Origin: Candidatus Methanoperedens sp.
Lineage (GTDB): Archaea > Halobacteriota > Methanosarcinia > Methanosarcinales > Methanoperedenaceae
Assembly (NCBI GenBank): GCA_027460535.1
Contig: JAPZAR010000018.1
Span: 30,001-62,000 of the forward strand
Direction: 5' to 3'
Length of the DNA stretch: 32,000 nt
Position numbers and translations under genes: made by a program. The notes below the pieces were generated by a model. The model was not told the origin of the DNA, made no database searches, and was given only the letters and a program-made list of their open reading frames with translations. Below, in pieces: positions 8,835 to 32,000 of the stretch; the stretch's first letter is position 1; every line of letters begins with the position of its first letter.

Positions 8835-8860
8835 TGTTTCATCTCGATGTCGCCATCATG

Positions 8861-13104: not shown

Positions 13105-13117
13105 TTGTTATCTCCTT

Positions 13118-13344: not shown

Positions 13345-13368
13345 CCTGCCTGACTGACTCAAAACAAG

Positions 13369-15360: not shown

Positions 15361-15722
15361 TGTTATTTTCCTAAATTAAATATTCTCATATGTATATAAT
15401 AACTTTTAACATCTCAAACTGCCAAGAAAATTGCATGACTATTCTATGTACTTCCAACCTCTCATCCATTTGATTTTGACTTTGAAATCGCATAAATTTT
15501 ACTGTTATCCTGAGATATCTTTTCCATCATTTCCTGGTTAATGACCATTGCCTCATAATCATTCCAAACATGCCATTTTTGATTATTCTCGCAGGTAAAA
15601 CCCCTGCACGGCACAGGGCGGTGGTCGCGCACTGTGCAGTGGTATGTATTCCTGTCCATATGAACGCAGTAGCCATCAGAATCATGTGCGATAAGATACG
15701 GTCTTCCGAACTCCCAGCGGAT
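14626..15722 (-). repeat. reference copy (C) of the dispersed effector-junction repeat: ykgJ-like 3' end, intergenic region, leader, acidic linker and DUF4157 core
   Basis: Its parts recur at 10462-10925 (copy A), 12745-13344 (copy B) and 17641-18375 (copy D, without the ykgJ part). Long stretches are near-identical at nucleotide level, for example ggttgcc-nnn-gttctttgaagaaagagaatttgttcaac and ttcttttatcggttgccgcttcagttcatca. Confidence 0.85.
15361..15461 (-). promoter_or_regulatory. conserved AT-rich intergenic region with a TATA-like box upstream of the effector leader
   Basis: Read on the minus strand: ...aaaagttattatatacatatgagaatatttaatttaggaaaataacaATG. A homologous copy precedes the orphan leader (10645-10731). 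The segment is deleted upstream of the 712-aa gene (13104). A promoter role is inferred only from the AT box and position. Confidence 0.3.
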
Positions 15723-16118
15723 GATGCCCTCATCCACATCCTGTTTAGACAGGGCAAAAGGAAATTTGCAGCACATAGCCTTGCATGTATGCAGCCTGCT
15801 CTCGCAGTCCACTTGGGTTTCATGTTCGAACGTGTATTTGTCTTCCTCCGGATCCTGATACATAAGTCCCATGCCACTCTCTACGAACTTCTTTACCAGC
15901 CGCTCTGCGACCTGATTTTTCCGCTTGTCCAGTTCCTCGATCGAGATCAATCCCTTTTCGCTGAGCAGTTCGATGACTGCATAGAGGAATGAGGTTGATT
16001 CTAAGGTTTTTTTGGTATTGGAATTGATGCGGGTGTGGGTGTAGAGCAGACCTTCGGCTAATTCCTTGTGTTCTTCACGCAATAGCTCTTTATTTCTAAT
16101 TTGAGTTTCTGTTTGCAT
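15462..16118 (-). CDS. YkgJ/UPF0153-family Cys-cluster (CxxCxxCC-type) putative Zn/Fe-binding protein
   Basis: 218 aa. VDCESRLHTCKAMCCKF...DSDGYCVHMDRNTYHCTVRDHRPVPCRGFTC fits the YkgJ pattern (C..C..CC ... dG.C ... C.i...RP..Cr). Its 3' end is duplicated at 10732-10923 and 13118-13344. Confidence 0.75.
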   Translation of the reverse strand: MQTETQIRNKELLREEHKELAEGLLYTHTRINSNTKKTLESTSFLYAVIELLSEKGLISIEELDKRKNQVAERLVKKFVESGMGLMYQDPEEDKYTFEHETQVDCESRLHTCKAMCCKFPFALSKQDVDEGIIRWEFGRPYLIAHDSDGYCVHMDRNTYHCTVRDHRPVPCRGFTCENNQKWHVWNDYEAMVINQEMMEKISQDNSKIYAISKSKSNG

Positions 16119-16482
16119 AAATATCTTTTTTCCAATTAAATTGCTTAATGAACTTTTTAAGAAAGGAATTTAATGTGGCAAATTACGAAAGGATTAATCA
16201 ACGCATTGCATTATAGGCATTAAAGCGGAAACTTCTACAAAACAAAATGCGGCCGATCTCTTGCATGCACGGATGAGTAAGTTCAACATCCATCCTGCTC
16301 ATACTCACTTACCGCATTCTCTTCACGATACCGGAAATATAGTTGATCGATGGAGCTACAAGTCCCCGGCCTTTTGCGGGCATACGGACTTCAAAAGGGG
16401 TCGACCTGGCCCAAGAATGAAAACATCAAAGCCCCCAGAATAACTATTCCTGGAATGTGCGATAAATTAGCCATTTGGCTTT

Positions 16483-18375: not shown

Positions 18376-18663
18376 GGTGCCTCCCTGATGATCTATCTTT
18401 ATACTCCTTTATATTTTTAAGAAATATATTTAAGCCTCATTCGTAACCTCTATCCCTCACCTGTTCAAAATTCCTGTATCTTCATTCGCGATGTCCATGA
18501 CTTTCAACCTCCAGTCCCTACAGGGTGATTTCGTTTTAATTTTTCTACAGCTTTAATCTGCTTTTCGATAAGTTTTACTATTTTTACTCCTCCTTAATTG
18601 ATCTTATATTCTACTCAGGCACAAGGCTATGATTTGGAAGTGATGGCATCTGTTGTCCAGATT

Positions 18664-19647
18664 CTATTTTCTTCTCATTAAAAAATATACTATCAAGATT
18701 ACAATAACAAATCCAAGAATAAATACAAGAGTAAATTCAAACATTGGGGACTTTTTCAATGTTGGATCCAATTTATATGCTATGTTAAGTGCTTCTTCTC
18801 CTTCTTCTGTTCTACCTAAGTTATTAAGAACAATCCCTTTTCTATACCATGCATTTGCATACTCCGGTTCTATCGCCAGCGCCTTATTATAACTTTCCAG
18901 CTCTTCTTCATATCGTCCTAAATTACCCAGGGCAAATCCTTTGTTATACCATGCAGAAGCTGATTGCGGGTCGATTTCCAGCGCCCTATCAAAACTTCTT
19001 ATGGCATCTTCATGTCTTCCTGAACTATCTAGGGCAATTCCTTTATTTTTCCATGCATTGGCATTCTTTGGATCTATCTTCAACGTCTTATCAAAATATT
19101 CTATTGATTCATTATATTTATTAAGACTTGAAAGAGATAATCCTTTTAAAAATAATGCATCAGTGTCATCTGGATTTATTTCCAGTGCTCTATCATAACT
19201 GCTTATGGCATCTTCGTGTTTTCCCCATTTAGCAAACGTTATTCCTTTCATAAGCCATGCAGAATTATCCTCTTGATTTATCTTCAATGCTTCTTCATAA
19301 CTTTTTATTGCTTCTTCATATCTCCCCAAATTACCAAGGGCGATTCCTCTCTTATCCCATGCAACAGTTAATTTCGGGTTTAATTCCAATGCTTTATCAT
19401 AGCTTTCCAACTCCTCTTTATGTCTTCCTAATTCACCAAGGGTAGTGCCCATGTTATACCATGCATTCGCGAACTGTGGATCAAGCTGAATAGCATTGCT
19501 AAAAGCTTCAAGCGCCCCCTCATAATTTCCGGCCTTTTCTAAAGTAATACCCTCTCGGTTCCAGTCAGATGCAGTTTTTGCACCAACTGCTGATATCATC
19601 AGCGACAATACGATAGACAATAAAATAATTCTTAAAATTTTGTTCAT
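18664..19647 (-). CDS. secreted tetratricopeptide-repeat protein (8 TPRs) with a C-terminal PEF/PGF-CTERM-like anchor
   Basis: 327 aa. The signal peptide is MNKILRIILLSIVLSLMISAVGA. Eight consecutive 34-aa TPR units follow (AxAWxxKGxALxxLGRxEEAxxSYxxALExxP). The C-terminus SPMFEFTLVFILGFVIVILIVYFLMRRK combines a motif, a TM helix and a basic tail. Confidence 0.85.
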   Translation of the reverse strand: MNKILRIILLSIVLSLMISAVGAKTASDWNREGITLEKAGNYEGALEAFSNAIQLDPQFANAWYNMGTTLGELGRHKEELESYDKALELNPKLTVAWDKRGIALGNLGRYEEAIKSYEEALKINQEDNSAWLMKGITFAKWGKHEDAISSYDRALEINPDDTDALFLKGLSLSSLNKYNESIEYFDKTLKIDPKNANAWKNKGIALDSSGRHEDAIRSFDRALEIDPQSASAWYNKGFALGNLGRYEEELESYNKALAIEPEYANAWYRKGIVLNNLGRTEEGEEALNIAYKLDPTLKKSPMFEFTLVFILGFVIVILIVYFLMRRK

Positions 19648-19812
19648 ATTACTCCATAGCTTATCGAGATTTCTCTAATATTATCTGCTCTCTTTATTTT
19701 CTATAAGTTTTTGATTTTTTGTATCGCTAACTGTAATGCATTCACTAACCATTGTATCCTGCTCCAGCGCAGGAGTAAAATGGGTAGATTACCGTGTAGG
19801 TCACTGAATTTT

Positions 19813-21546
19813 TCATGAAAATGAATAGATTGCCCACGGATACAAATTTTGCTGGCAATTGGGACAATTTCGTCGAAAGACTGAAAAGTCTATTTTATCG
19901 TTACAACTGGGACATGACAATTTTTTATCTTTGATTTTAATAAAAATATAAGTTACACATGAAAAAACAAAGAAAAAAACCATCGTAAGTGGTTTATTAT
20001 TAAGAGTTTCAATTGCATAGAATCTGATTAAGATATACAAGAATGATGATAGAATCGAAACAAATATGAAATTTTTTACTGCTTCTTTTTTATTAAAACT
20101 TCTCCGTATCAGAATTGATGAAAAAATCAGAATGTATAGCAATACAATTGAAAAATAGAGAGCATGCCAGAACCATGCTTTCGCTATATCTAGGAGATTG
20201 CTCATTATAGTATTAATTTCATAAAGGGAAATAATTGCGGGAAAATAAATTAATTCATTGGTCAACCATCCTAAACTGAATGCCATTGAAAATTTTATTA
20301 GATTTGAAATAGTAGTGGACGAAAAATAGTTCTTCTTTTCAATAAAAGTATCTCTTAATATCGATTTATGAAAACTAAGGCTTACAGGCAGCATCAGAAC
20401 AGGAACGATGAAAACAGAGATAATAGCTCTAAGACCAATATATATCTCTCCACTTGATTGATAGTTCTCATTTGCCATTGCAGCCCATTCAGAAGAAGAC
20501 AATGAAAAAATCTGATTGAAAAAAGGCAACGATAACTCAATTAAACCGTAGAAAAAACCAATACTAAATGCAATCCATAGACTTGGATCAAACAGGCTCA
20601 GATTATTTTTAAGGATCTGAATTCTTTCGTTTATATTCGGGTGAAATTTTTTTAGTAATTCAAATTTCGAGTACTGCTCTCCGCCACTTTCTTCCAGAGT
20701 TTTTACAATATTTTCAGGAGATCTTTCCCATTCAACAACTCTTGCATCTGCATAAAACTCTCTAATACGGATTATCTGGTTTCGCAATACATAGATAACT
20801 CCTAAAAAAATTATAAAATAAATAATGATCCCTCCATATAATGCCACTCTTTTTCCAATATCCATTTTAGAGATTATATAATCCATATCATATCCTGCGA
20901 GATTCCCCAAGTAAAATATGCTTAACGCAAGATATATTTCATATAATAGAAAAATTCCAAGCGGTACTGACAGGGTCAGGAAAAGCGACCGCCATGTAGA
21001 ATTCGCCAGATAAGTTTTTTCAACATCTCTGTTAACTATATGACCCATTTCATGAAGGAAAATCGTTTTGAAACCATTGAGATTTTCCCGAAACATTTTG
21101 ATCAGCCCGCCAGGAATACCAATGTACATATGATTTTTCGTACCAAAAGTAAAAGCGGACTTTGATGCATCCAGTGGTTGAACCATCAGCACAGGTTTTT
21201 TCTCTCTCGAAAAGTATTCACTATGTAGCTTTTCAATGTATTCATGGTGTTCTGGATACTTTTTTGGGTCAAACTCCTTCAATTTTGATTCTTTTTCAAT
21301 TTTTCCTGTAGATTTTTTATAATCCCTGTAAATCAAAATGGGGATAAATAAGAAAATCGGAATCACAATCAATAATCGGAGAATAAGCGTTATCTCAGCG
21401 CCGGCCATCACATAAAAAATAACAATCGCAAATATCAGAGCCCATAAAGATGGAACGATAATGCCAATTAAGACCATTAAGTAAAATCGAATATCGGTCT
21501 CCGAGATATACACGAAAGGATTTAAACGGATATCATTTTCGTTCAT
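19813..21546 (-). CDS. polytopic membrane M48-like (HtpX/Ste24-type) zinc metalloprotease with a C-terminal zinc ribbon
   Basis: 577 aa. HEMGH lies at nt 21040-21054 (FLHEMGHIVNRD), and the downstream REFYADARV is the M48 third-ligand ExxAD pattern. There are many hydrophobic helices. The C-terminal CPSCNDKIDFSVFRRNCPNCQ forms a CxxC...CxxC ribbon. Confidence 0.8.
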   Translation of the reverse strand: MNENDIRLNPFVYISETDIRFYLMVLIGIIVPSLWALIFAIVIFYVMAGAEITLILRLLIVIPIFLFIPILIYRDYKKSTGKIEKESKLKEFDPKKYPEHHEYIEKLHSEYFSREKKPVLMVQPLDASKSAFTFGTKNHMYIGIPGGLIKMFRENLNGFKTIFLHEMGHIVNRDVEKTYLANSTWRSLFLTLSVPLGIFLLYEIYLALSIFYLGNLAGYDMDYIISKMDIGKRVALYGGIIIYFIIFLGVIYVLRNQIIRIREFYADARVVEWERSPENIVKTLEESGGEQYSKFELLKKFHPNINERIQILKNNLSLFDPSLWIAFSIGFFYGLIELSLPFFNQIFSLSSSEWAAMANENYQSSGEIYIGLRAIISVFIVPVLMLPVSLSFHKSILRDTFIEKKNYFSSTTISNLIKFSMAFSLGWLTNELIYFPAIISLYEINTIMSNLLDIAKAWFWHALYFSIVLLYILIFSSILIRRSFNKKEAVKNFIFVSILSSFLYILIRFYAIETLNNKPLTMVFFFVFSCVTYIFIKIKDKKLSCPSCNDKIDFSVFRRNCPNCQQNLYPWAIYSFS

Positions 21547-22007
21547 TGTATCCCCATGAGCGTCAATTTTCCAATTATAGAATCAGCATAAAAACCTGCT
21601 TTCTGCTCATCTATCCCCATGGATAAAGCATCCTTGAATACATAATCTCTTAAATCCTTGATTTTCGCATTTGATGTATGAACCTCTTTTCCCCCTATTT
21701 TTTCTTTGATCTTATCCTCTAAAGCCTTTGCACCCTCCTTTTTTAGGGATTCGACTCCGGCCTTACCGATATGTGCTATAACACCCCAGATAAGCGGAAG
21801 AATCGTAGTTGTAATGAATACTTCTCCAACTCCACCTCCAAAACCCAGCATTTTTTCTTTTTTCTTAGGATCTTTCTCCAGAAAAGCATCAGGATTTTTA
21901 AGATATTCTTCTTTTATATCGTCGAATAAATCCAGTTCATCAGGTGCCACTTCTTTTATAATTTCATACGAAAGGCGAGACGCCAATTCTTCACTATTTT
22001 TATCCAT
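21543..22007 (-). CDS. hypothetical protein, translationally coupled to the M48-like protease
   Basis: 154 aa. Its stop overlaps the downstream start (ATGA at 21543-21546). GGTGGTGA Shine-Dalgarno upstream. It has one central hydrophobic segment (VFITTTILPLIWGVIAHIG) and Lys/Glu-rich flanks. I recognise no motif. Confidence 0.6.
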   Translation of the reverse strand: MDKNSEELASRLSYEIIKEVAPDELDLFDDIKEEYLKNPDAFLEKDPKKKEKMLGFGGGVGEVFITTTILPLIWGVIAHIGKAGVESLKKEGAKALEDKIKEKIGGKEVHTSNAKIKDLRDYVFKDALSMGIDEQKAGFYADSIIGKLTLMGIQ

Positions 22008-23122: not shown

Positions 23123-23353
23123 TCACTCTGTTATTGGCTCAGATTTAGGAATTCTTTCTAACTGGCTTGTGCTAACCGACTCTATCTGCCTCTCTTTCAC
23201 CAGTTCCTCTTCAAGCACCTGGATCGCACCACTGATGCGCAGCAGTGTGTTCCTCAGGTTCGCCTGTTTAATTTCCAAGTCGGAGAGTGCTTTTTGACCT
23301 GATTCGAATTCGGTTCTCAGTTCTTTGAGACGATGCTCTAATCGTTCTTTCAT
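23123..23353 (-). CDS. small coiled-coil protein downstream of the tail fibre (possible fibre accessory or chaperone)
   Basis: 76 aa with heptad-like, Leu/Glu/Lys-rich sequence (LKELRTEFESGQKALSDLEIKQANLRNTLLRISGAIQVLEEEL). A strong AGGAGG lies 7 nt upstream of the ATG, 13 nt after the tail-fibre stop. Confidence 0.6.
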   Translation of the reverse strand: MKERLEHRLKELRTEFESGQKALSDLEIKQANLRNTLLRISGAIQVLEEELVKERQIESVSTSQLERIPKSEPITE

Positions 23354-23366
23354 AATTCAACCTCCT

Positions 23367-26300
23367 TCAACTTGAATATACGAATATATCGATAACCCCT
23401 TTTCCTGACTCATGCCTATCAAGGGCTTTTCCTATAATCGTTCCTGGTCGAAATAATTCTTCACCTTTAATTTTTATAGGACTGGCTTTCATAGCATGAC
23501 CAGGGATTGAAGAAGATGTTAATAAATTTCCCCTTTTTATCGGACCATTTTCATCAACAACTTTACAGGGAACACGACCACACAGGGCAACAGGAAATAC
23601 CTTTTCACCGTCACGCTTTGTATTTAACAAGAATCCAGGTGCAGTCGATATAACTCCGAGGACTAAACAGTCATCCGGCTTTTCCGATATGATGATTCTA
23701 TCCTCGTCCTGGTCCAAACGAACAACATCTCCAGGTTCAAGATCCATATCTGAAGAATAGTTCTCAGCTAGGTCGCCAACCAAACCGGTTTTGAAACCAT
23801 AACTTGAATACATTGTTCCCTCTGCTTGCACATCACCTGCAACATGCAGCGCGCATACTGGGTCCGTTGTCATGATGCCGACGTAGCCTTTATTATAGTA
23901 AATACGCCCGGCGATAGAACCATCAATCCATTTGCTTGCGCCAAAAATATTTTTTAATCCTGAGCCATCGCCAACAAACGCATCCGCCTTAACTGTACCG
24001 ATGACTTCTAATTCTTTTGATGGCGTTATCGTACCGATGCCGACATTTCCTTTATCGTAATAGATACCGCCAGCAGCATCAGACCATTTGCCTGCGCCTG
24101 TTAACTGTGAGCCATCGCCTATGAATTTCGTTGCGCTGACAGTTCCATTAACTGATAAATCGCTGGCAGCATAAGCGTTCCCCACGAAGATATTGCCATT
24201 AATATCAATTCTCATTTTCTCTTTACCGTTTATCCTAAACTCCAGACCTTGAGAATTGCCTTTGACATCAATGTATGAAGTATCATCGTTATCTCCCTTG
24301 ATATCCAGACAGATTTCTCCCTCATCACCGAGACGCAGATGGCTACCGTTCCAACGCCTTCCGAGTAGCGTTAAAGAAGGATAACCATTGCCGATGATTA
24401 AAAGCCCTTCCTTATCATAATCATCTGGAACATATTGATCTTCGCCTGCATAAGTAAATTCGCCAATCTGGAGCTTTCCTGATGGGCTCTTTGTACCGAT
24501 GCCGACGATGCCATTATAAAAAATACTATCAGGGACTGCACCATCTGACCATTTGCCTTCATTGATACCTGTTAATCCTGATCCATCGCCTATGAACTTA
24601 TCTGCCTTAATGGTGCCTATAACAGATAGTCTATCGGTTGCAGATGGTGGTGTCCCGATACCCACGTTGTTCTTATAATAAATCCCGGCAGGGTCGCCGA
24701 GCCATTGGGTTTTACCGGTTAACTTCGAGCCGTCACCTATGAACTCCTTGGCTTTGACAGGGCCGTCAACGTATAAATTACCTAATAATTCCACATTACC
24801 CTTTCCATCAATACTGATTCTGATCAATTCCCGGGTCATGAGATAAATAGAATTGGACCCACCCATCGAGTTAATTTGCAGGCCACCTCCACCAGTACCT
24901 TCAGCCTGAATCCTGATATCGCTGTTTGTATCCTCAGTCGAAAGCCTTAATGCGTAACCGTCATTGCTTTTCACATCTAACCCATAACCTGGCGTGGATG
25001 TGCCAATGCCAACATTGCCTTTATCATAATAAATCCCGGCAGGGTCATTGAGCCATTGGCTGGCTCCTGTTAACTGCGAACCATCACCTAAGAACACATC
25101 TGCTTTAACAGTGCCGGCGACCTCTAATTCATTTGACGGCTTATCCGTCCCGATACCGACATAGCCGCCATTACGGTTTATATAAGTATTTGCAGCGCTA
25201 TTATTTATTAACAAGGCTTCAAGCTCTTTTGACCAGAGAATATCCGCTTTCTGTGTGCCATCTTCATAGAAAGATATCACCGGGTCGGGTATGAATTCTG
25301 CCAGCATTGGTACGGGGGCCGGACTGGAACCATGGATCCTGACATAATCACCTGACATAGAATCAATCGGTTGAACAAGAAGATCCCCGTTCCTTACTTC
25401 AAGTTTTGATTCCGGATTCAGCGTCCCAATACCGACATTCCCCATAATCTCGGCATTTTCGGCTAAATTCAATGTATCTCCTGAGAATCCAGATGCATTA
25501 ATGTTAGTGGCTTTAACTGTGCCATTAACGTGCAGTAGTTTTTCAGATGGTTCATCGATACCTATGCCAACATTGCCATCGTTATCAACAATCAGGGCAG
25601 GGTCAGGAGAGCCGTCTGAACCCACGAGTTTGCTGTGCTTATGGAGTTCATCTGCAATTGAAGCATCGGTCAATTTAAGCACATTGTCACCGTAAACTAA
25701 ATCTAACAAATTATTTTCAAGACCGATTTTCCATTTGCTATTTTTCTCAATAGCCTCCTCTCGCCATATTATCTGGGCATTTGGTGCTGTCCCACCCCGA
25801 TAAACCTCTAAACCGCCATCACCAATAAGCGGTTTTTTATTCCCGGGGGGTGGATAATCATGTACTGTAATGATATTGTCTGAAATTACTACTCCTTCTT
25901 TCCGGGTCCCTTTGACTGTAAGATTACCATCAATCGTACAATTACCATCGACTGCCAGATTTTTATCACCCGGATCAGATGTGCCTCCGATGTGCAGACC
26001 GCCGGGCATCCCGCTTTTTACCTCAAGCGTCCCATTAACAGTGCAATTGCCATCTACGACCAGATTTTTATCACCCGGCTCAGACGTGCTTCCGATACGA
26101 AGACCGCCTGTGAAATTCGTTAAAGGAGAATTGATTTGAATCCCGTTTTCAGCATCAAACTTCTTTCCCTCGATAGAAAGTGCGCTTTCTTCCCCATCCA
26201 CAGATAGCGCCAGTTTACCGTAGGCTCCAGCATAAATGCGGTCTTCATTTTCGATATGGACATGTCCATCTATCAATTTGACCTTTGCCAGTATGATATG

Positions 26301-26771
26301 ACTTTCATTGTCAGGTTTATTTTCAGGTTTAACTGCAATTAATTCAACTTTGGCTGTTTCCAGCCAGTTGATTTCTTCACTCCCCCCCTTCGACTCATCA
26401 GTATAGTTTTTTTCCTCAAACCGATAAATATAAAAATAGACTCCATCACCTTCAGCTGCAGTGCCTTTGAGTTCGATATCATCTGTCTCAGCAAAAAGAA
26501 TGATCTCCTGACTTACATCATCTTCATTTGCTGCTTTCACCTTATTGAGCGCCATGCCCGGCTTTATTTTTACACTTGTGGGATTGGATCCCTCTACTAC
26601 CTCCAGTCCCCATACTATCCCGTGGCTGTGCAGATGCCCGTTATGAAGCCGCCGCATCCTGATATGATAATTCTGGTCAAGCACGAACTCTTCCTGTTTC
26701 AGGAACAGTTCATTAAAGTATCGCATCCTTCTGACTTCTTTCATTTTCTCAATGTCATCCAACGTTATCAT
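23367..26771 (-). CDS. eCIS/phage tail-fibre-like protein with repeated GNVGIGT...FIGDGSxLTG units
   Basis: The track ORF is 23367..26825. I prefer the ATG at 26771 (MITLDDIEKM...) because GGAGGT lies 6 nt upstream. At least six repeat units of the form IYYxKGNVGIGTxxPxxxLEVxGTVKAxxFIGDGSxLTG occur between nt 23826 and 25583. A tandem ~33-aa duplication (G-T/S-SxPGDKNLxVDGNCT) lies at 25908-26111. The non-repetitive C-terminal domain is about 150 aa. Confidence 0.85.
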   Translation of the reverse strand: MITLDDIEKMKEVRRMRYFNELFLKQEEFVLDQNYHIRMRRLHNGHLHSHGIVWGLEVVEGSNPTSVKIKPGMALNKVKAANEDDVSQEIILFAETDDIELKGTAAEGDGVYFYIYRFEEKNYTDESKGGSEEINWLETAKVELIAVKPENKPDNESHIILAKVKLIDGHVHIENEDRIYAGAYGKLALSVDGEESALSIEGKKFDAENGIQINSPLTNFTGGLRIGSTSEPGDKNLVVDGNCTVNGTLEVKSGMPGGLHIGGTSDPGDKNLAVDGNCTIDGNLTVKGTRKEGVVISDNIITVHDYPPPGNKKPLIGDGGLEVYRGGTAPNAQIIWREEAIEKNSKWKIGLENNLLDLVYGDNVLKLTDASIADELHKHSKLVGSDGSPDPALIVDNDGNVGIGIDEPSEKLLHVNGTVKATNINASGFSGDTLNLAENAEIMGNVGIGTLNPESKLEVRNGDLLVQPIDSMSGDYVRIHGSSPAPVPMLAEFIPDPVISFYEDGTQKADILWSKELEALLINNSAANTYINRNGGYVGIGTDKPSNELEVAGTVKADVFLGDGSQLTGASQWLNDPAGIYYDKGNVGIGTSTPGYGLDVKSNDGYALRLSTEDTNSDIRIQAEGTGGGGLQINSMGGSNSIYLMTRELIRISIDGKGNVELLGNLYVDGPVKAKEFIGDGSKLTGKTQWLGDPAGIYYKNNVGIGTPPSATDRLSVIGTIKADKFIGDGSGLTGINEGKWSDGAVPDSIFYNGIVGIGTKSPSGKLQIGEFTYAGEDQYVPDDYDKEGLLIIGNGYPSLTLLGRRWNGSHLRLGDEGEICLDIKGDNDDTSYIDVKGNSQGLEFRINGKEKMRIDINGNIFVGNAYAASDLSVNGTVSATKFIGDGSQLTGAGKWSDAAGGIYYDKGNVGIGTITPSKELEVIGTVKADAFVGDGSGLKNIFGASKWIDGSIAGRIYYNKGYVGIMTTDPVCALHVAGDVQAEGTMYSSYGFKTGLVGDLAENYSSDMDLEPGDVVRLDQDEDRIIISEKPDDCLVLGVISTAPGFLLNTKRDGEKVFPVALCGRVPCKVVDENGPIKRGNLLTSSSIPGHAMKASPIKIKGEELFRPGTIIGKALDRHESGKGVIDIFVYSS

Positions 26772-26843
26772 ATTTTTACCTCCTTGTTTTATTATAATCA
26801 TTTCTCTTAATATCTTTAAACTCACTCGATTTCCATTGACAGA

Positions 26844-27860
26844 TCATGCCTCCGTGCTTTCGCGGATCAAGCTTCCAAGCAGTGTATCCACCCCGATTTT
26901 TGAATGTACTCCTATTTGCATGGTGGGTGCCTCAGTAATCAGATAATAATATGTGTGAGCCGGTTTTTCAAGATTGATGATGTTCCTTATGACGCGCCTC
27001 CTCTTTTCCAGTATCTCCCGACTCGCTGTGGGCAGCTCGATATATACCTGGAAATAATAGGGGCGTCCTTCCCGTATCGCTGTATTCGTTCCGATCGTGG
27101 AACTGACGCCTATCTGTAATGTCTCCAGGAACTCATTTATTGATATCTTGACATCTTCGCCCACATAGATCCGGATGAACTTTCGCAGTCCGTCAAGCGT
27201 TCCTCGCCTCTGGTACAGCGGGATTATCTTCGCAATAAGATCGCGCTTTTTCGCAGCGTTATTCTCATTCCATTCATCCTCTTCTCTCGGAACAAGGGCC
27301 ATCCAGCCTGCAAGCCAGGGAAGGAACTCAAGAGGCATATTAAGAGGTTCGAAATAGATATGGATCTGGTCAATTATTTCCTCTATACCTTTTCTTTGAG
27401 TTACTTCATAAGGGAACGCTTCTACCAGAAGCATCATGTTCAGGCGGATGAGGTCATTACCGACCGGATTTTTTTCAAGAAGCTCTGCGGTTTCAGGAGA
27501 TAATTTTATCCTCTGGAAGCGGTTTTTTTCATATATCGAATTTCCAAGGAGCAGGTTCTTGAATTCTTCATTCAGGGCTTTTTGAAGGGCTTCTGACGGC
27601 TGACTTGCATTCATGAACTCATCCAGAATCCGCCTGTTCTCTTGTGAAAATCTATCCTTAATGAAAACGGACAGGGGATTATTAGCATCAAGCAATTTGT
27701 ACGCCAGACCAGCCGGATCTTTGATCTCCACGCGGAACAGTGAGTATTTTGAAAGGATGTTCTCAAATACTTTCAGGAACCTTTCAAGAAAGCCATCTTT
27801 TTCTATCTGATAGATGGCAGGCAAATACCGAAGATAATTTCTGTCGTTATTGTCATTCAT
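26844..27860 (-). CDS. phage P2 gpI-like baseplate wedge / tail protein (eCIS Afp12/Pvc12-like position)
   Basis: 338 aa. YLRYLPAIYQ...FLERFLKVFENIL, EFLPWLAGWMAL, IIPLYQRRGTLDGL and NLEKPAHTYYYL match the conserved blocks of the phage-tail-protein-I (TIGR02242-type) family. The start overlaps the upstream gene by 8 nt. Confidence 0.8.
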   Translation of the reverse strand: MNDNNDRNYLRYLPAIYQIEKDGFLERFLKVFENILSKYSLFRVEIKDPAGLAYKLLDANNPLSVFIKDRFSQENRRILDEFMNASQPSEALQKALNEEFKNLLLGNSIYEKNRFQRIKLSPETAELLEKNPVGNDLIRLNMMLLVEAFPYEVTQRKGIEEIIDQIHIYFEPLNMPLEFLPWLAGWMALVPREEDEWNENNAAKKRDLIAKIIPLYQRRGTLDGLRKFIRIYVGEDVKISINEFLETLQIGVSSTIGTNTAIREGRPYYFQVYIELPTASREILEKRRRVIRNIINLEKPAHTYYYLITEAPTMQIGVHSKIGVDTLLGSLIRESTEA

Positions 27861-29712
27861 ATTTCACCGTTTCTATGTCGAATTTCTCCAATGCGATCAG
27901 CTGGTGCTTCTCGATCGCAAGTGTCGAAGCATTTTCAACATCGTTTATCCAGATTTTAGCGACATAGTCTACGCCGTTGATATTTTCCAGCAGGTTGTAC
28001 ACTTCAGAGCGGTAGATATGCCTGCCCATGGGCCAGCCAGTTCCCTCCGGTCCGCCTGAGATCGGATTGAAATATTCTTTAATCCTTCTTTCAGCCTCAG
28101 ATATCACTTCGGCTTGCTTAATATTTTCTTTAATGGCAAGCTGCACTCTCAGCTTCACATTTGCATAAACAGGACTCACCACATGCACACGTGTCGTGAT
28201 CAATCTCCTCGCATCCAGATATGCTTTGATCTCTTCCAGCAACAGATCTGAAGGTTTTCCCTCTTCTTTGCAATATCTGGAAATCTCGTATATATTTAGA
28301 ATACTATTTTCTTTTATAGCATTAAGCGCAAAGGTGCAACCATCATCGATTTTCAGGTTCACAATGGTTTTCGTATCATTAAGTTTTAGAGAAAGAGTTT
28401 TTTCTTCAGTAGATACATTTATTGTCCTACCATTATCGATTTTTTCAATTTTTGCTATTTTTGCCAAATCAATACCATATTTCTGTTCCAGAAATTCTGC
28501 GAGTTTCCCATTATCGTTTCCCGGGATTTCATCCCATCTGAACAAATATGAATCTTCTACTCCGCGTGGAATAATGATCACAGAAACATGTCCTGGAAGC
28601 TCCTCATTTACCCCATATTCTTCAATTCCCTTGCTGTATAATAGTTTCCGGTTGGTCATGCAGACAGCCCTTCCCGGAGGGTCTTTTTGCAGCAGGATTT
28701 TCATACAATCCTGTGCTCTTTTTTTATAATCTTCTGACGTGATGGCCCTGTACATGGATTCCATGAATTCAACGGGAGCCTGTTTGATTTCCGAGATGCT
28801 CTTCTTTTTTCCATCATTGATTTCGACCAAGAAATTGAGAAGATTTTTATAAGCTCCGTCCAGATCAGGCATATTATATATGTTCAATCCTCCATTTTCT
28901 TTTATGGAATGCAGGTAGCGCACCTTACAGCCATTGATATTGAGATTTCCTTTTCCCTCAATTTCATCCACTTTTATTTCTATCCACTTTTTGCCTGAGG
29001 AAATATTGAGAGTCTTAATTGAAGGATTATATACGTTAAGTTTGTCTTCTCCTTCCATCAAAACGAATTCATCGGTTCTACCATCATCGGTTATCAGCCT
29101 TACCTTCTTTTCCTCTTTTTTAAGTCCAAGAGAGACAAATTTATCTCCTGAAGATAGTTTTATGGTTTCATCATATGTGTCATCATGATAATTTTTAACT
29201 ATTATTGATTTTTCCACCCAATCAATACCAAATCTCATTTTTAAAAATGATGTGAGTATTTTGTCATCGTTTCCTGGTACATCGTTCCAGGAAAAAAAAT
29301 ATGATTGATCGTGCTTTATGATCTTCGCATTATCATAATTTGTTACCCAATCTAAACCGAGTTCGGTCTTCAGGAAATTCCGTAATCTGATCTCACCATC
29401 CGGTTTAAAATCATTCCAGTCAAATAAATACGTGCTTTCAAGTATTTTCTCGAGATCGTCTTTATTCTGTGTTCCTGCGATGAGCTTCAGGAAGTTGGTA
29501 TAGGATTCTACAGTGACCTGGTTCATCCTGTACATTACCATTTCGCTGAGCCATGCGAAAAGTTCAAGGAGCGTTATTCCAGGATCTGATGGATTGTGGT
29601 TTGTCCAGTCCCTGTCATAATTAAGGATAAGCGATCGCGCCTCTTTCATCAGGTCATCGAAACGTCTGTCATCCAGATTAGGTATTGGTAAATTCGATAT
29701 AGGTACGGACAT
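27853..29712 (-). CDS. baseplate J-like assembly protein (gpJ/gp6/Afp11-like) with an inserted novel repeat module
   Basis: 619 aa. The N-terminus is NLDDRRFDDLMKEARSLILNYDRDWTNHNPSDPGITLLELFAWLSEMVMYRMNQV. The C-terminal J-domain blocks are YRAITSEDYKKRA, HVSVIIIPRG, RRLITTRVHVVSPVY and GGPEGTGWPMGRHIYRSEVYNLLENINGVDYV. The region between them is occupied by the repeats described in the findings. Confidence 0.85.
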   Translation of the reverse strand: MSVPISNLPIPNLDDRRFDDLMKEARSLILNYDRDWTNHNPSDPGITLLELFAWLSEMVMYRMNQVTVESYTNFLKLIAGTQNKDDLEKILESTYLFDWNDFKPDGEIRLRNFLKTELGLDWVTNYDNAKIIKHDQSYFFSWNDVPGNDDKILTSFLKMRFGIDWVEKSIIVKNYHDDTYDETIKLSSGDKFVSLGLKKEEKKVRLITDDGRTDEFVLMEGEDKLNVYNPSIKTLNISSGKKWIEIKVDEIEGKGNLNINGCKVRYLHSIKENGGLNIYNMPDLDGAYKNLLNFLVEINDGKKKSISEIKQAPVEFMESMYRAITSEDYKKRAQDCMKILLQKDPPGRAVCMTNRKLLYSKGIEEYGVNEELPGHVSVIIIPRGVEDSYLFRWDEIPGNDNGKLAEFLEQKYGIDLAKIAKIEKIDNGRTINVSTEEKTLSLKLNDTKTIVNLKIDDGCTFALNAIKENSILNIYEISRYCKEEGKPSDLLLEEIKAYLDARRLITTRVHVVSPVYANVKLRVQLAIKENIKQAEVISEAERRIKEYFNPISGGPEGTGWPMGRHIYRSEVYNLLENINGVDYVAKIWINDVENASTLAIEKHQLIALEKFDIETVKYE

Positions 29713-29733
29713 GTGTTGCCTCGAAAGAAAAAA

Positions 29734-32000
29734 TCAGCGTTTAGACAATTCAGCTCCAAAACACCATCTGCAGTAATCGTATACATTGGTCATATCAAGA
29801 TCATCATAATTTCTGATGAACTTTCTATGCCCAAGTCTTATATCAGGAAGATGGCAGTTCTTCTTCCAGTTATTCAATTTATGGACCTCCCGGGTGTTTG
29901 TATTAATAAGATAAGGGAATTCAGGAAGTTTTCCGTTATGTACCAGATTATATATTTCATCGATTTTGACATCGGGTAATCCCTCCTCCTCCTCACTCTT
30001 ATTTATCACATGTGTACCGGAATAAACAAGATAGTTATCATCTATGAAAATGGTTTCAACCTTATCACTTATTTCTTTTATCTGTGAAGAATCAATCTTA
30101 GTTGGATCATCCCTGAGCCCGAGGAACAATTTATCACTTATCTCAAGTGGCGCTACCTTGAGATTAATGATGTCGCTATTCGCAGGCACACCTTCGGTAA
30201 TGAATGACTTAATTCTCTTATCAAATGTTTCCACGACGCTCCAAGGAGGGAATCCAGTTTCAGATCGTACGGATTCACATTCAAGGATGTCACCCTTAAT
30301 ATTATGAGACACGGAACTAACAACAAGAAGTTTCCTGTTTTCGCCATCTCTGAGGATAATATTGTCTCCTTCTTTAAAACCCACTACAGTAAGAGTATCA
30401 GTTCCTTCAAGTGGAAGTCGTTCAGCCAGAGAGAATATTGCTCTGTCATAGATTTTCGTTTTGTCCTTTGCAACCAATTCATCGGTCCTGATGTTATCGA
30501 TTGTGAGGATCAGCCTTGTTGGATCATCATCAAATCTGATCGAAACCGTGTTATTGACGATCTTATTGTAAGTGTATATGTTTAGCTTATTATTCTCGAC
30601 CTTCGCCTCGAATTTATCGGTCCTGTGGTCAGTTGAGATCGAAAGGTCTGCTTTGGTTTTTGTAGCGTCGAGCCTGATCAGAATATAGTTTTGATTCAAA
30701 GGTGGCCATACAAAAGGACCTTTGATTTTCAGGGTTATGCCATTGTCAATTTTTCTAACTATCGAAAAAACTTGATCTAACCAGTCCAAACCAAATTCTT
30801 CTCTTAGATATGTAATAAGTTTATATTTTTCTTTTCCCGGTACTTCCTCAGTATCGGCAACCTCTTCCCAGCTGAACAAATATTTATTATATATGTGATT
30901 ATATGTGTACACATATATGACATTCTTGGTTTTTTCAATCGTTTCTCCCTTCTCAAAGTCAATGCCAAAATTCTGTGTCAGATAAGCTTTCAAATTTTTT
31001 GAATCTTTTCCCGGAATTTCATCCCAGTCAAATAGGAATTTCTTACCTATCGACACAATACTGCGCTCTGGATAAACAACCGATGGAGTTATTTCATTGA
31101 TTTTCAATTTATAAATCTGTATCGAAGCATTAAGATACAGCTGATCCACATAGTCCACACCATCCGTATTCTTGATGACTTTATAAACTTCCGATATATA
31201 AACATCCCTTCCGAAATCCCGTCCTTTATTGTCTGTACCCCCGTGCAGCGGGTGAAAGAACTCATTCAGTCTTTTAATGATCCTGCCTTCAATGGTCTTT
31301 GCCTCGGGGATCGAAGTGAACTGGACAGAAGCTACCACTCCCACCTTGATATAACCCGGACCTATCATATTGATCTGGGAACGGTCTATGAGATGGGTCG
31401 ATGTCTTTTTTTCAATATCATCTTTAATGCTATCTATTAATTCCTGGGTCGGAAGAGGTTTGTGATCGTCGCTTTCCGGGACTATGATCACCGTGACCCA
31501 GCCGGATTTTGTCCTCTGGGTGGGATCTTTGACTGGCAGGCATTTTGCTTTTGCTACTTTTGGGGATGCCCTGACCAGCCACTCATAGTCCTCTAAAGTG
31601 ACTGCTCTTTCATGGTGTTTGATAGTCTGAGGTCCTCTTTCTTCAGCACTTTCCAGGGTCTCCTTATCCCATCCGCCATCTGCATCCGCGTGATTCGTGA
31701 CTGACTTGACAAATGGAAAAGCGGTCTTTAGTTTTGTTATGGAGTATGCCCTGGCATTATTTCCATCATTTCCCCCTCCATACCGATAGCTGCACACGAT
31801 ATTATTTTTTCCAGCTGGAGGGATCATCCCTCTTACTCCGTCGCCAAAGGTTATTGTCCCATTAATCCTGTCTATAATATAGTGCCTGCTATGGGGTCCA
31901 GAAGAGAAGAAATGGCTTACCTCATGCCATCGAACCCGGTAACCTGTGATGTTGCCTGCATCATCCTTAAGATCTTTGACTGCTGCCTTATCGTTTTTTT
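29734..32000 (-). CDS. baseplate J-like assembly protein, 5'-truncated by the window edge, with a C-terminal repeat-module extension and a Cys/His knuckle
   Basis: The track ORF starts at the Met at 31827, but the same frame is open to 32000 (...GYRVRWHEVSHFFSSGPHSRHYIIDRINGTITFGDGVRGMIPPAGKNNIVCSYRYGGGNDGN). That stretch is the conserved mid-section of baseplate-J-family proteins, so the true start lies beyond the window. The J-domain blocks are ERAVTLEDYEWLV, WVTVIIVPES and GGTDNKGRDFGRDVYISEVYKVIKNTDGVDYV. Confidence 0.85.
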   Translation of the reverse strand, partial: KNDKAAVKDLKDDAGNITGYRVRWHEVSHFFSSGPHSRHYIIDRINGTITFGDGVRGMIPPAGKNNIVCSYRYGGGNDGNNARAYSITKLKTAFPFVKSVTNHADADGGWDKETLESAEERGPQTIKHHERAVTLEDYEWLVRASPKVAKAKCLPVKDPTQRTKSGWVTVIIVPESDDHKPLPTQELIDSIKDDIEKKTSTHLIDRSQINMIGPGYIKVGVVASVQFTSIPEAKTIEGRIIKRLNEFFHPLHGGTDNKGRDFGRDVYISEVYKVIKNTDGVDYVDQLYLNASIQIYKLKINEITPSVVYPERSIVSIGKKFLFDWDEIPGKDSKNLKAYLTQNFGIDFEKGETIEKTKNVIYVYTYNHIYNKYLFSWEEVADTEEVPGKEKYKLITYLREEFGLDWLDQVFSIVRKIDNGITLKIKGPFVWPPLNQNYILIRLDATKTKADLSISTDHRTDKFEAKVENNKLNIYTYNKIVNNTVSIRFDDDPTRLILTIDNIRTDELVAKDKTKIYDRAIFSLAERLPLEGTDTLTVVGFKEGDNIILRDGENRKLLVVSSVSHNIKGDILECESVRSETGFPPWSVVETFDKRIKSFITEGVPANSDIINLKVAPLEISDKLFLGLRDDPTKIDSSQIKEISDKVETIFIDDNYLVYSGTHVINKSEEEEGLPDVKIDEIYNLVHNGKLPEFPYLINTNTREVHKLNNWKKNCHLPDIRLGHRKFIRNYDDLDMTNVYDYCRWCFGAELSKR

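What the first reader, a model, noticed from the sequence alone, without database searches (positions are those of the whole stretch)
23123..32000. Distal half of a contractile injection system (eCIS-type) with two J-like paralogs, in a probable archaeal genome
The tightly packed minus-strand genes run in the order J-like (more than 755 aa, partial), J-like (619 aa), gpI-like, tail fibre, and a coiled-coil protein. There is an 8-nt overlap at 27853-27860 and a 21-nt gap at 29713-29733. This reproduces the Afp11-13/Pvc11-13 part of eCIS loci.

No capsid, portal, terminase, integrase or lysis genes occur in the 23 kb downstream. Toxin-like cargo with eCIS-associated DUF4157-type leaders follows instead, which favours an eCIS over a prophage.

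The neighbouring core genes have an archaeal, Methanosarcinales-like character. The evidence is GatB with YYYPDLPKGFQITQYD, the PEF-CTERM-like anchor, and AT-box promoters. eCIS have been predicted in only a few archaea, and their targets are unknown.

The second J-like protein keeps only the N-terminal and C-terminal conserved blocks, an arrangement I have not seen described.
Basis: partly seen in the sequence, partly recalled or inferred. Interest (0 to 1): 0.7.

Follow-up and report, generated by a model that had tools for sequence, protein, structure and literature searches.

The report
Archaeal injection system riddled with mobile domain
This is the far end of a complete phage-tail-like injection machine in a methane-oxidising archaeon, a known kind of system, but two of its baseplate genes carry in-frame copies of a small jumping DNA element that encodes a folded 87-residue protein domain, and I found no description of that element.

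Summary
Window 23123-32000 (minus strand) encodes the C-terminal 754 codons of a 1686-aa Baseplate_J protein (Cis11a), a second 619-aa J-like protein (Cis11b), a P2-gpI/Cis12-like protein, a 1134-1152-aa tail fibre and a 76-aa protein. The 8-nt overlap and 21-nt gap are as stated.

Identical public contigs extend the locus upstream. They add gp25, PAAR, base-V spike, GPD hub, tube-LysM, a repeat-rich tape-measure-like protein, two gp19 tubes, sheath, Pvc16 cap and AAA+ ATPase. No capsid or terminase gene is present. All window proteins are exact matches to a Candidatus Methanoperedens (ANME-2d) MAG.

The eCIS-in-an-archaeon reading is therefore right, but it is not new. Such clusters are reported in ANME and Methanoperedens, and two cis11 genes are a described trait of archaeal CIS.

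The unexpected part is why the second J-like protein looks hollow. Its middle, and parts of Cis11a, consist of an 87-aa module. At least five copies are insertions of a 262-bp element with 14-bp terminal inverted repeats and an 8-bp target duplication (270 bp, 90 codons). The copies are often nested and are absent at the same sites in orthologues. The same element sits in frame in about 2,200 unrelated protein clusters.

The parts
29734..32000 (-). 3' part (754 codons) of cis11a / J-A. This is the large gp6-like baseplate wedge protein, 1686 aa in full; the gene continues past the window end.
   Evidence: The frame is open to 31998. Pfam Baseplate_J E=3.6e-12. The full protein matches TIGR02243 at 4e-71. 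The best PDB sequence match is Streptomyces CIS Cis11, 9gtp, at 5e-56. L001 is 100% identical to the window over 14,148 bp.
27853..29712 (-). cis11b / J-B, a second and shorter gp6-like wedge protein (619 aa). It has an N-terminal helical block (aa 1-79) and a C-terminal J domain. The space between is filled by module copies.
   Evidence: Baseplate_J 5.6e-08. TIGR02243 matches only profile positions 1-67 and the C-terminal block. 9gtp Cis11 2e-28. The AF2 model has pLDDT 80. Foldseek top hits, all at prob 1.0, are Cis11, Mu baseplate, T4 baseplate, AFP baseplate, PVC baseplate and pyocin PA0618. Module-free orthologue P0061 is 364 aa.
26844..27860 (-). cis12, a P2 gpI / gp7-like wedge protein (338 aa). 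It overlaps cis11b by 8 nt.
   Evidence: Tail_P2_I 7e-12. TIGR02242 3.5e-22 and CIS12_fam 7e-22. PDB matches are 9gtp chain E and pyocin PA0619.
23367..26825 (-). Tail-fibre-like protein (1152 aa from GTG; 1134 aa from ATG 26771). It has repeated GNVGIGT...L.V.G units.
   Evidence: PHROG tail fibre families 2.9e-16 and 1.7e-12. Its position after gpI matches related loci.
23123..23353 (-). 76-aa protein following the fibre. It may be a fibre assembly or accessory factor.
   Evidence: The ORF is conserved in position in L002 and L056. No family hit was found. The function is inferred from position only.
28280..28557 (-). Element copy B4 in cis11b. The 262-bp element occupies 28288-28549 and is flanked by target duplications GAAGATTC (28550-28557) and GAGATTTC (28280-28287).
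   Evidence: nhmmer E=3.5e-56 against a DNA model built from copies in unrelated genes. There is an exact 270-bp indel against orthologue P0003, whose empty site reads GTAGAAAATTCCAAG. Junctions were read.
29029..29301 (-). Element copy B2, nested inside the older module of cis11b.
   Evidence: Protein HMM positions 1-87, score 86. nhmmer 3.5e-35. It splits B1 (HMM 1-39) from B3 (HMM 41-87).
28876..29430 (-). Older, probably native cis11b module, split into B1 (29305-29430) and B3 (28876-29016) by B2.
   Evidence: The two halves have complementary HMM breakpoints, 39 and 41. The same divergent module sits at aa ~90 in Methanoperedens orthologues P0005-P0025.
30448..31038 (-). Nested pair in cis11a. 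The outer copy is A2 (30904-31038, HMM 1-47) plus A4 (30448-30555, HMM 49-87). It is split by inner copy A3 (30574-30882), whose 3' TIR GTATATGTTTAGCT is intact.
   Evidence: The whole block is absent from the module-free orthologue in L004, which reads ...ENGK|IIFLLAETLP. A further copy, A1, lies outside the window at L001:6653-6901.
16483..18375 (-). Putative effector 1 (630 aa). It combines a shared N-terminal leader, the eCIS_core/DUF4157 (HExxH) domain, an OmpA-like domain and an unknown C-terminus.
   Evidence: eCIS_core 5.6e-30 and OmpA 2.7e-10. It is 70% identical to effector 2 over the first 250 aa.
13369..15360 (-). Putative effector 2 (663 aa). It has the same leader and eCIS_core domain but an unrelated C-terminus.
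   Evidence: eCIS_core 5e-30. One search gives the comparison with effector 1. The C-terminus has no family hit.
10966..22007 (-). Variable accessory and cargo region. It holds a 154-aa protein, an M48 metalloprotease (19813-21546), a TPR protein (18664-19647), the two effectors above, a CxxCxxCC protein (15462-16118) and a 712-aa unknown protein (10966-13104).
   Evidence: The related locus L056 carries different genes here, an M4 peptidase and another eCIS_core protein. GC content is lower than in the housekeeping flank. That these genes belong to the system is inferred.

Best explanation
Window 23123-32000 is the 3' end of a complete Afp/PVC-type contractile injection system (CIS/PLTS) operon. 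It lies in the chromosome of a Candidatus Methanoperedens (ANME-2d) archaeon.

**Proposed mechanism (inferred from homologues).** The two gp6-like proteins, Cis11a (1686 aa) and Cis11b (619 aa), together with the gpI-like Cis12 most likely form the wedge heterotrimer. In single-J systems such as Streptomyces CIS, pyocin, T4 and T6SS that wedge is (J)2-I. Six wedges would surround the GPD/base-V/PAAR hub, gp25 would start the sheath, and the fibre would hang from the wedge periphery. Sheath contraction would then drive the tube and spike, with DUF4157-tagged effectors encoded just downstream, into a target. Whether the particle is released or fires from the cell envelope is unknown.

**Why the second J-like protein looks hollow.** Two reasons combine.
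1. The Cis11b lineage is naturally minimal. Module-free relatives are 364 aa, made of N-terminal helices and a C-terminal J domain.
2. In this genome both cis11 genes were expanded by in-frame copies of an 87-aa module.

At least five copies are insertions of a 262-bp non-autonomous transposon. Counting an outer copy and the inner copy nested in it separately, these are B2 and B4 in cis11b and A1, A2/A4 and A3 in cis11a. The element has 14-bp terminal inverted repeats (GTATTTGTTTAGCT / GTATATGTTTAGCT) and makes an 8-bp target duplication. Each insertion therefore adds exactly 270 bp, or 90 codons, and is read through as a compact helix plus beta-sheet domain.

**Shown versus inferred.** Shown here: the gene content, the host, the TIRs and target duplication, an empty/filled site pair, nesting, and spread to many protein families. 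Inferred: the wedge stoichiometry, the role of the effectors, that the module is translated, and the module's origin as a native Cis11b domain.
For: **The CIS cluster**
- The gene set on identical contigs includes ATPase, Pvc16_N cap, sheath, two gp19 tubes, CIS_tube, GPD, base V, PAAR, gp25, two J proteins and gpI.
- The related locus L004 has the same gene order.
- PDB entry 9gtp holds 12 Cis11 chains and 6 Cis12 chains. Its Cis11 is the best sequence match for both J-A and J-B.
- The J-B model matches gp6-class wedge proteins.

**The element**
- An HMM of the module finds [N-half][full][C-half] arrays with complementary breakpoints in both genes.
- The same pattern occurs in 24 further cases among 152 proteins, always within predicted loops.
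- The TIR matches at 12 of 13 positions.
- The 8-bp target duplication matches at 7 or more of 8 positions in 15 of 30 copies, against 1 of 300 controls. A G precedes TAT in 25 of 30 copies. Third-codon positions at the 3' end are 0.91 conserved against 0.69 in the interior.
- There is an exact 270-bp presence/absence difference between window cis11b and orthologue P0003, which carries its own independent insertion elsewhere.
- The insertions are absent from module-free orthologues of cis11a and cis11b.
- 2,188 representative proteins carry the module. Among 78 hosts, 58 different Pfam families are represented.
- AF2 folds the module at pLDDT 92.
- dN/dS between copies is 0.25-0.6, and no copy has an internal stop.
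Against: - The wedge heterotrimer is an analogy. No complex was modelled, and AFP/PVC/tCIS baseplates are described as Cis11-Cis12 heterodimers (PMC8894136).
- No autonomous transposase with the same TIRs was found in 433 kb of fetched loci.
- Unlike ordinary MITEs, no copy is intergenic or antisense: 63 of 67 hits lie in a spanning sense-frame ORF.
- The open antisense frame is never seen in proteins, although that is a weak word-index negative.
- The seed 20-mer used to collect copies lies in coding sequence and biases the sample.
- Divergent tandem arrays of the module occur in Bacillota-labelled Cis11b-like proteins. Some copies could therefore have arisen by ordinary duplication.
- There is no expression, proteomic or particle evidence.
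Confidence: 0.8

Rival explanations
1. The cluster is the tail module of a myovirus prophage or a tailocin, not a dedicated injection system.
For: Every structural gene is phage-tail-derived. The fibre and chaperone hit PHROG tail families. The region's GC content is lower than that of the housekeeping flank.
Against: No capsid, portal, terminase, integrase or lysis family appears in the 32-kb window or in the sequenced upstream extension, about 16 kb beyond the window end on the 45-kb ENA contig. The locus carries CIS hallmarks that phages and pyocins lack: an AAA+ ATPase with a WHD domain, a Pvc16_N cap, PAAR and DUF4157/eCIS_core proteins.
Confidence: 0.03
2. The machine is not extracellular. 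It is anchored to the cytoplasmic membrane and fires on contact, like the haloarchaeal T6SS-type CIS, or it acts inside the cell as in Streptomyces.
For: The only experimentally studied archaeal CIS (Halogeometricum) has two cis11 genes and a T6SS mode of action (PMC11566945). The closest solved homologue of both J proteins is the cytoplasmic Streptomyces CIS. Methanoperedens grows in tight aggregates.
Against: No homologue of the six-TM anchor was seen, but only about 400 bp upstream of the cluster was available and I did not search for it. A long fibre and DUF4157 cargo are typical of eCIS loci. Sequence alone cannot settle this.
Confidence: 0.4
3. The 87-aa modules in the two J-like proteins are ordinary domain repeats made by tandem duplication and recombination. 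No mobile DNA element is involved.
For: Bacillota-labelled and other Cis11b-like proteins carry 8-10 divergent tandem modules at the same N-terminal position. All copies are translated in frame under some purifying selection. No transposase partner was found.
Against: Conserved 14-bp TIRs sit out of phase with the codons. The 8-bp flanking duplications are far above control. An exact 270-bp indel has a single-copy target at the empty site. Nested insertions have complementary breakpoints at many different loop positions. Near-identical DNA (75-85%) occurs in 58 or more unrelated protein families.
Confidence: 0.12
4. The inserted segments are removed after transcription or translation, as an archaeal BHB intron or an intein would be, so the mature baseplate proteins lack them.
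For: The TIRs could pair in RNA. The insertions are precise multiples of three and sit in loops.
Against: No copy has a stop codon and dN/dS is below 1, which implies the sequence is read. The module starts and ends with Tyr and has no Cys/Ser/Thr or His-Asn intein junctions. The folded strand does not pair its termini, z=-1.6. AF2 predicts an autonomous folded domain.
Confidence: 0.05

Closest known systems
Afp/PVC-like contractile injection systems (eCIS / PLTS), in particular the archaeal clusters of Methanomethylovorans hollandica, ANME archaea and Methanoperedens (PMC4122934, PMC9012536, PMC12180501, PMC12246660)
   Same: It has the same gene set and order: ATPase, cap, sheath, two tubes, tape measure, tube-LysM, split GPD and base V, PAAR, gp25, two Baseplate J genes, gpI and fibre, followed by DUF4157 cargo.
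   Different: Both cis11 genes are enlarged by in-frame mobile-element copies: 1686 aa against 1324 aa, and 619 aa against 364 aa in a module-free relative. The tape-measure-like gene has a 4x 303-bp repeat. The cargo set differs between close relatives.
Haloarchaeal T6SS-type CIS of Halogeometricum borinquense (two cis11 genes; PMC11566945)
   Same: It is an archaeal CIS with two cis11 paralogues, and its closest bacterial relatives are among Firmicutes.
   Different: The mode of action here is unknown. The conserved six-TM anchor gene was not seen or tested. The host is a methanotroph with a different envelope.
Streptomyces coelicolor CIS baseplate (PDB 9gtp): (Cis11)2-Cis12 wedges
   Same: It is the best sequence and fold match for both J-like proteins and for the gpI-like protein. 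Its 12:6 chain ratio is the basis for the proposed wedge.
   Different: Streptomyces uses one Cis11 in both positions. Here two diverged paralogues would each take one position, which is an inference.
Rickettsia palindromic elements (RPE) and other MITEs that insert in frame into genes (PMC10969869)
   Same: It is a short, multi-copy, non-autonomous element found inside unrelated protein-coding genes. It is read through as an extra peptide that sits on loops.
   Different: The host is an archaeon. It has TIRs and an 8-bp target duplication rather than a long palindrome. It encodes a confidently folded 87-aa domain rather than a short peptide. It nests inside itself. In the sample it is exclusively genic, sense and in frame. 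It is related to a domain of a baseplate protein.

Membership tests
Afp/PVC-type contractile injection system (CIS/PLTS) | Contractile sheath and gp19-type inner tube genes | tested here: met
   Phage_sheath_1/1C (617 aa) and two Phage_T4_gp19 genes lie on the identical contigs L006 and L007.
Afp/PVC-type contractile injection system (CIS/PLTS) | Baseplate set: tube-LysM (Afp7), hub and spike (GPD, base V), PAAR, gp25, Baseplate J and gpI | tested here: met
   CIS_tube 4e-23, YQBQ/GPD, Phage_base_V 5e-28, PAAR 1.5e-11 and GPW_gp25 4e-26. Baseplate_J twice and Tail_P2_I.
Afp/PVC-type contractile injection system (CIS/PLTS) | AAA+ ATPase (Afp15) and Pvc16/Afp16 cap, which are absent from phages and pyocins | tested here: met
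   WHD 1.7e-56 and AAA 3e-36. The Pvc16_N protein is 188 aa.
Afp/PVC-type contractile injection system (CIS/PLTS) | No head, packaging, integration or lysis genes in the locus | tested here: met
   No such family appears in the window or the upstream extension. Only about 400 bp beyond the ATPase-side end was available.
Afp/PVC-type contractile injection system (CIS/PLTS) | Tape-measure protein (Afp14) | tested here: inconclusive
   An 815-aa repeat-rich protein sits in the right position but has no family hit.
Extracellular CIS in the strict sense | Particles are released from the producer and act at a distance | not testable with these tools
   This needs particle purification or cryo-ET. 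The studied archaeal example is T6SS-like (PMC11566945).
Haloarchaeal T6SS-type CIS | Conserved six-TM membrane anchor gene (Hbor_38620 family) next to the cluster | not tested
   The upstream flank is almost absent on the contigs fetched. I ran no search with the anchor.
MITE (non-autonomous DNA transposon) | Terminal inverted repeats | tested here: met
   GTATTTGTTTAGCT against GTATATGTTTAGCT, conserved across copies.
MITE (non-autonomous DNA transposon) | Target-site duplication and empty/filled site polymorphism | tested here: met
   The 8-bp duplication matches at 7 or more of 8 positions in 15 of 30 copies against 1 of 300 controls. An exact 270-bp indel has a single target copy in orthologue P0003.
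MITE (non-autonomous DNA transposon) | Small, multi-copy, with no transposase of its own | tested here: met
   The element is 262 bp. 2,188 representative host proteins carry it. Its only reading frame is the 87-aa module.
MITE (non-autonomous DNA transposon) | An autonomous partner element sharing the TIRs | tested here: inconclusive
   None was found among 433 kb of fetched loci. No whole genome could be scanned.
MITE (non-autonomous DNA transposon) | Mostly intergenic location, as is usual for prokaryotic MITEs | tested here: not met
   63 of 67 hits lie inside a spanning sense-frame ORF, and none is clearly intergenic. The sample is biased by a coding-sequence seed.
Rickettsia palindromic element type | The element is a long palindrome able to form a hairpin over its whole length | tested here: not met
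   The DNA fold has z=-1.58 and the termini are not paired in the MFE structure.
Intein | Cys/Ser at the N-terminal junction, His-Asn at the C-terminal junction, and a Cys/Ser/Thr +1 residue | tested here: not met
   The module begins Y-L-F-S-W and ends L-N-I-Y in all 25 aligned copies.

The most novel reading that the evidence does not exclude
The 87-aa module is a transposable protein domain that originated in the CIS baseplate protein Cis11b, and its spread is not neutral. Copies are seen only in frame inside genes. This implies either integration that is selective for coding frames or a selected function. One such function would be homotypic docking of module-tagged proteins (STAND, KAP, SIR2, RAMP, pentapeptide and similar) to the module-bearing baseplate, which would make the element a mobile 'cargo address tag' for the injection system.
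Probability: 0.1. Interest if true: 0.9.

Novelty: new variant of a known kind. Interest (0 to 1): 0.6.

Why it matters
The injection system itself adds one more, fully delimited, example to the ANME/Methanoperedens CIS clusters. Their targets and mode of action are still unknown, and they may shape methane-oxidising consortia.

The more useful result concerns protein evolution. A 262-bp transposon delivers a ready-folded domain into surface loops of hundreds of unrelated proteins. It nests within itself and has remodelled the baseplate of a nanomachine between close relatives. If confirmed, it would be, to my knowledge, the first archaeal counterpart of the Rickettsia in-frame elements, and a natural model of domain insertion by transposition.

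There is also a practical consequence. Length and 'missing middle' differences among Cis11 homologues should not be read as functional divergence before such insertions are masked.

Tried and rejected
- **Own genome in GTDB representatives.** A genome-contig scan with the tube protein found only a distant Actinomycetota CIS (L003), so taxonomy had to come from exact protein look-ups.
- **RNA genes.** Rfam and tRNA scans of the window and L001 found nothing.
- **Fold of the module.** A search against PDB gave no match better than E=0.14.
- **Pfam PF27311.** This family (AF_1994_N) is only a faint precomputed hit and is not in the local library.
- **Antisense-frame peptide.** A search of 5.8 billion protein clusters found nothing, so there is no positive evidence for reverse-orientation insertions.
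- **Viral contigs.** The one 17-mer match was a chance hit, not an element.
- **Autonomous partner.** A search for TIR pairs at other spacings in 433 kb found none.
- **Whole-element hairpin as in RPE.** Rejected.
- **Other Pfam/PHROG scans.** No hits for the Cis11a C-terminal Cys/His tail, the effector C-termini, the 712-aa protein or the small cluster ORFs.
- **Literature.** Searches for a Methanoperedens or archaeal in-frame MITE found nothing relevant. The library lacks most subscription journals.
- **Prophage reading.** Considered and rejected (see rivals).
- **Not checked.** The PEF-CTERM anchor and AT-box promoters.


Full report
**1. Observation**

The leftmost frame is open from 29734 to the window edge, giving 754 in-window codons.

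Domain searches confirm the labels.
- Both large proteins hit Baseplate_J (E=3.6e-12 and 5.6e-08).
- The third hits Tail_P2_I (7e-12).
- The fourth hits PHROG tail-fibre families (3e-16).
- In NCBIfam, TIGR02243 ('putative baseplate assembly protein') scores 4e-71 on the first J-like protein.
- On the second it scores 3e-41 and matches only profile positions 1-67 and the C-terminal block.

Two downstream proteins carry eCIS_core/DUF4157 at 5e-30. They share a 70% identical 250-aa leader ahead of unrelated C-termini. No ORF between 1 and 23 kb hits a head, packaging, integration or lysis family. carB and gatCAB are present.

**2. Extending the locus**

An exact look-up of the 619-aa protein found public contigs that are 100% identical to the window over 14,148 bp. 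Walking upstream through the tube-LysM protein gave the whole cluster (Pfam; PHROG):

1. a 103-aa ORF
2. an AAA+ ATPase with WHD domain (717 aa)
3. a Pvc16_N cap
4. two small ORFs
5. sheath (617 aa)
6. gp19 tube
7. a 122-aa tail-chaperone-like protein
8. gp19 tube
9. an 815-aa repeat-rich tape-measure-like protein
10. CIS_tube/LysM
11. GPD-like hub
12. base-V spike
13. PAAR
14. gp25
15. Cis11a (1686 aa)
16. Cis11b (619 aa)
17. gpI-like protein
18. fibre
19. the 76-aa protein

A related 335-kb contig has the same order.

**3. Host**

The second J-like protein, the tube protein, GatA, GatB, the CNNM protein, gpI, both DUF4157 proteins, the M48 protease and the 712-aa protein are all exact matches to NCBI proteins. 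Those proteins come from a 'Candidatus Methanoperedens sp.' MAG on a 69,145-bp contig. One copy of the locus is in GCA_027460495.1. The 90% GatB cluster has 65 members, and those that carry an organism name are labelled Methanoperedens or Euryarchaeota.

**4. What is already known**

- CIS/PLTS clusters were reported in Methanomethylovorans and haloarchaea in 2014. That paper states that in Archaea, Cyanobacteria and Firmicutes the Baseplate J component is encoded by two genes, and that GPD and base V are split (PMC4122934).
- They are described in all ANME groups, including ANME-2d (PMC9012536), and in ANME-3 (PMC12180501).
[quoted passage not shown] - Haloarchaeal clusters have two cis11 genes, and the machine works as a membrane-anchored T6SS. 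That paper notes that the methanogen and ANME systems remain unexplored (PMC11566945).

So the archaeal CIS and its two J paralogues are not novel. 'Extracellular' remains an assumption.

**5. How the wedge probably works**

The best solved homologue of both J-like proteins is Streptomyces Cis11 in PDB 9gtp. That entry holds 12 Cis11 chains and 6 chains of the gpI-like Cis12. This is the (J)2-I trimer, which I know from established work to also build the wedges of T4, pyocin and T6SS.

The AF2 model of Cis11b (pLDDT 80) matches baseplate wedge proteins at probability 1.0. The hits are Cis11, Mu baseplate, T4 baseplate, AFP baseplate, PVC baseplate and pyocin PA0618.

Both paralogues keep the N-terminal helical block and the C-terminal J domain. 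The most economical model is a Cis11a-Cis11b-Cis12 heterotrimer, with each paralogue fixed in one of the two non-equivalent gp6 positions. This is an inference. AFP, PVC and the Anabaena system are described as Cis11-Cis12 heterodimers (PMC8894136), and I could not model a complex.

**6. Why the second J-like protein looks hollow**

Reading the sequences showed a recurring motif, YLFSWDEIPGND..L..FL...FGIDW...LNIY, in both J-like proteins.

*Occurrence outside baseplate proteins.* Homologue searches turned it up in unrelated proteins: a KAP NTPase, a GAF protein and a pentapeptide-repeat protein.

*Copies in this locus.* An HMM of the 87-aa module finds four stretches in each gene.
- In cis11b, an N-half (HMM positions 1-39), a full copy and a C-half (41-87) lie side by side, with another full copy further on.
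- In cis11a, an N-half (1-47), a full copy and a C-half (49-87) lie side by side, with one more copy upstream of the window.

*Nesting.* Complementary breakpoints mean one copy sits inside another. The same nesting occurs in 24 further cases among 152 proteins. The breakpoints differ between cases, and all fall in loops of the AF2 model. That model has pLDDT 92 and consists of one helix plus a six-stranded sheet. It has no PDB fold match.

*Distribution.* A profile search of 1.84 billion representative proteins finds the module in 2,188 of them. Seventy-eight hosts span 58 Pfam families. These include pentapeptide, TPR, pYEATS, Tail_P2_I, RAMP, S-layer, KAP, GAF, RFC, SIR2 and NB-ARC.

**7. 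The module is carried by a mobile DNA element**

- **Terminal inverted repeats.** Copies from different genes and samples are 75-85% identical in DNA. Their ends form inverted repeats, GTATTTGTTTAGCT and GTATATGTTTAGCT, out of phase with the codons. Third-codon positions in the last five codons are more conserved (0.91) than in the interior (0.69).
- **Target-site duplication.** Forty-three metagenome contigs holding the 5' 20-mer were fetched. Among 30 distinct full copies, the 8 bp on either side match at 7 or more positions in 15. Only 1 of 300 offset controls does so. The base before TAT is G in 25 of 30.
- **Length.** The element is 262 bp and the duplication 8 bp. Together that is 270 bp, or 90 codons.
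- **Empty and filled sites.** Window cis11b and its orthologue P0003 are 82% identical in DNA. The window has an exact 270-bp insertion, with the element at 28288-28549 and flanks GAAGATTC and GAGATTTC. P0003 reads GTAGAAAATTCCAAG at that site. P0003 in turn has an independent insertion in another place.
- **Absence from orthologues.** The module-free relatives of cis11a (1324 aa) and cis11b (364 aa) lack all these insertions at precisely definable sites.
- **Selection.** dN/dS between copies is 0.25-0.6, and about 1.3 for a 93%-identical nested pair. No copy has an internal stop. The segment is evidently translated and kept foldable.

**8. Origin of the module**

All Methanoperedens Cis11b orthologues carry one old, divergent module directly after the N-terminal block. 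Cis11b-like proteins from MAGs labelled Bacillota carry 8-10 divergent tandem modules at that position. A giant Altiarchaeales protein also carries the module.

Archaeal CIS are thought to share ancestry with Firmicutes CIS (PMC4122934, PMC11566945). The module was therefore probably a native Cis11b domain that later became flanked by TIRs and mobilised. The reverse order cannot be excluded.

**9. What does not fit**

Prokaryotic MITEs are mostly intergenic (PMC10969869). Here, 63 of 67 DNA hits in 433 kb lie in a spanning sense-frame ORF. The remaining four are cut by contig ends or carry an indel.

The antisense frame of the consensus is fully open. Even so, a search with that peptide found no protein, although this is a word-index search and so a weak negative. 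No autonomous partner was seen.

The coding-sequence seed and selection against a hydrophobic antisense peptide explain part of this bias. They do not explain the lack of intergenic copies. The element is also not a long palindrome like RPE, and it has no intein junction residues.

**10. Verdict**

The claimed rarity and the 'undescribed arrangement' are not novel as stated.

The real peculiarity is that both gp6-like baseplate genes have been expanded by an in-frame, domain-encoding, TIR/TSD-bounded element. That element has spread through thousands of proteins. I found no description of it in the searchable literature. The closest analogue is the Rickettsia palindromic element.

My confidence is about 0.95 in the CIS call, about 0.8 in the mobile-element reading, and about 0.5 in the heterotrimer wedge model.

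Noticed in passing
L006:7557-10004 (upstream of the window; repeat at L006:8322-9576): The 815-aa tape-measure-like gene contains a 303-bp tandem repeat of 4.1 copies at 81% matches. Its homologue in the module-free locus L004 is only 567 aa. This suggests tail length may differ between close relatives.
   Followed up: partly
window 29734-29994 (minus strand, C-terminus of cis11a): Cis11a ends with an extra ~87-aa tail that is absent from the L004 orthologue. The tail has a Cys/His pattern (NCHLPDIRLGHRKF...YDYCRWCFG) that looks like a small zinc-binding motif. It has no Pfam hit.
   Followed up: partly
window 13369-18375 and L056:8458-11404: The two DUF4157/eCIS_core proteins share a 70% identical 250-aa N-terminal leader that includes HELTH, but have unrelated C-termini. 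A close relative's locus carries an M4 peptidase and a different eCIS_core protein instead. This looks like a swappable cargo cassette.
   Followed up: partly
window 18000-23200: GC content falls to 0.32-0.39, against 0.48-0.51 around carB-gatCAB. An ORF-poor 1.1-kb gap lies at 22008-23122, between the fibre-side genes and the M48/TPR genes. Rfam finds nothing there.
   Followed up: no
P0248, P0050, P0250 (proteins from MAGs labelled Bacillota/Firmicutes): These Cis11b-like baseplate proteins carry 8-10 divergent tandem copies of the same 87-aa module directly after the N-terminal 76 residues. This hints that the module is an old, native baseplate domain.
   Followed up: partly
78 module-bearing host proteins (alignment A2): Hosts of the module are rich in conflict-system proteins (NB-ARC/STAND, KAP, SIR2, RAMP, pentapeptide, TPR, pYEATS). 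They also include replication factor C and an S-layer protein.
   Followed up: partly
L010 and L011 (precomputed Pfam): The module gives a faint precomputed hit to Pfam PF27311 (AF_1994_N), the N-terminal domain of an Archaeoglobus protein. That family is not in the local library, so the relationship could not be examined.
   Followed up: no
window 8583-9871 (minus strand): Two adjacent ORFs (83 aa and 336 aa) both hit the N-terminal domain of the plant NARROW LEAF 1 trypsin-like protease family. This may be a duplicated or split protease gene between the housekeeping genes and the cargo region.
   Followed up: no
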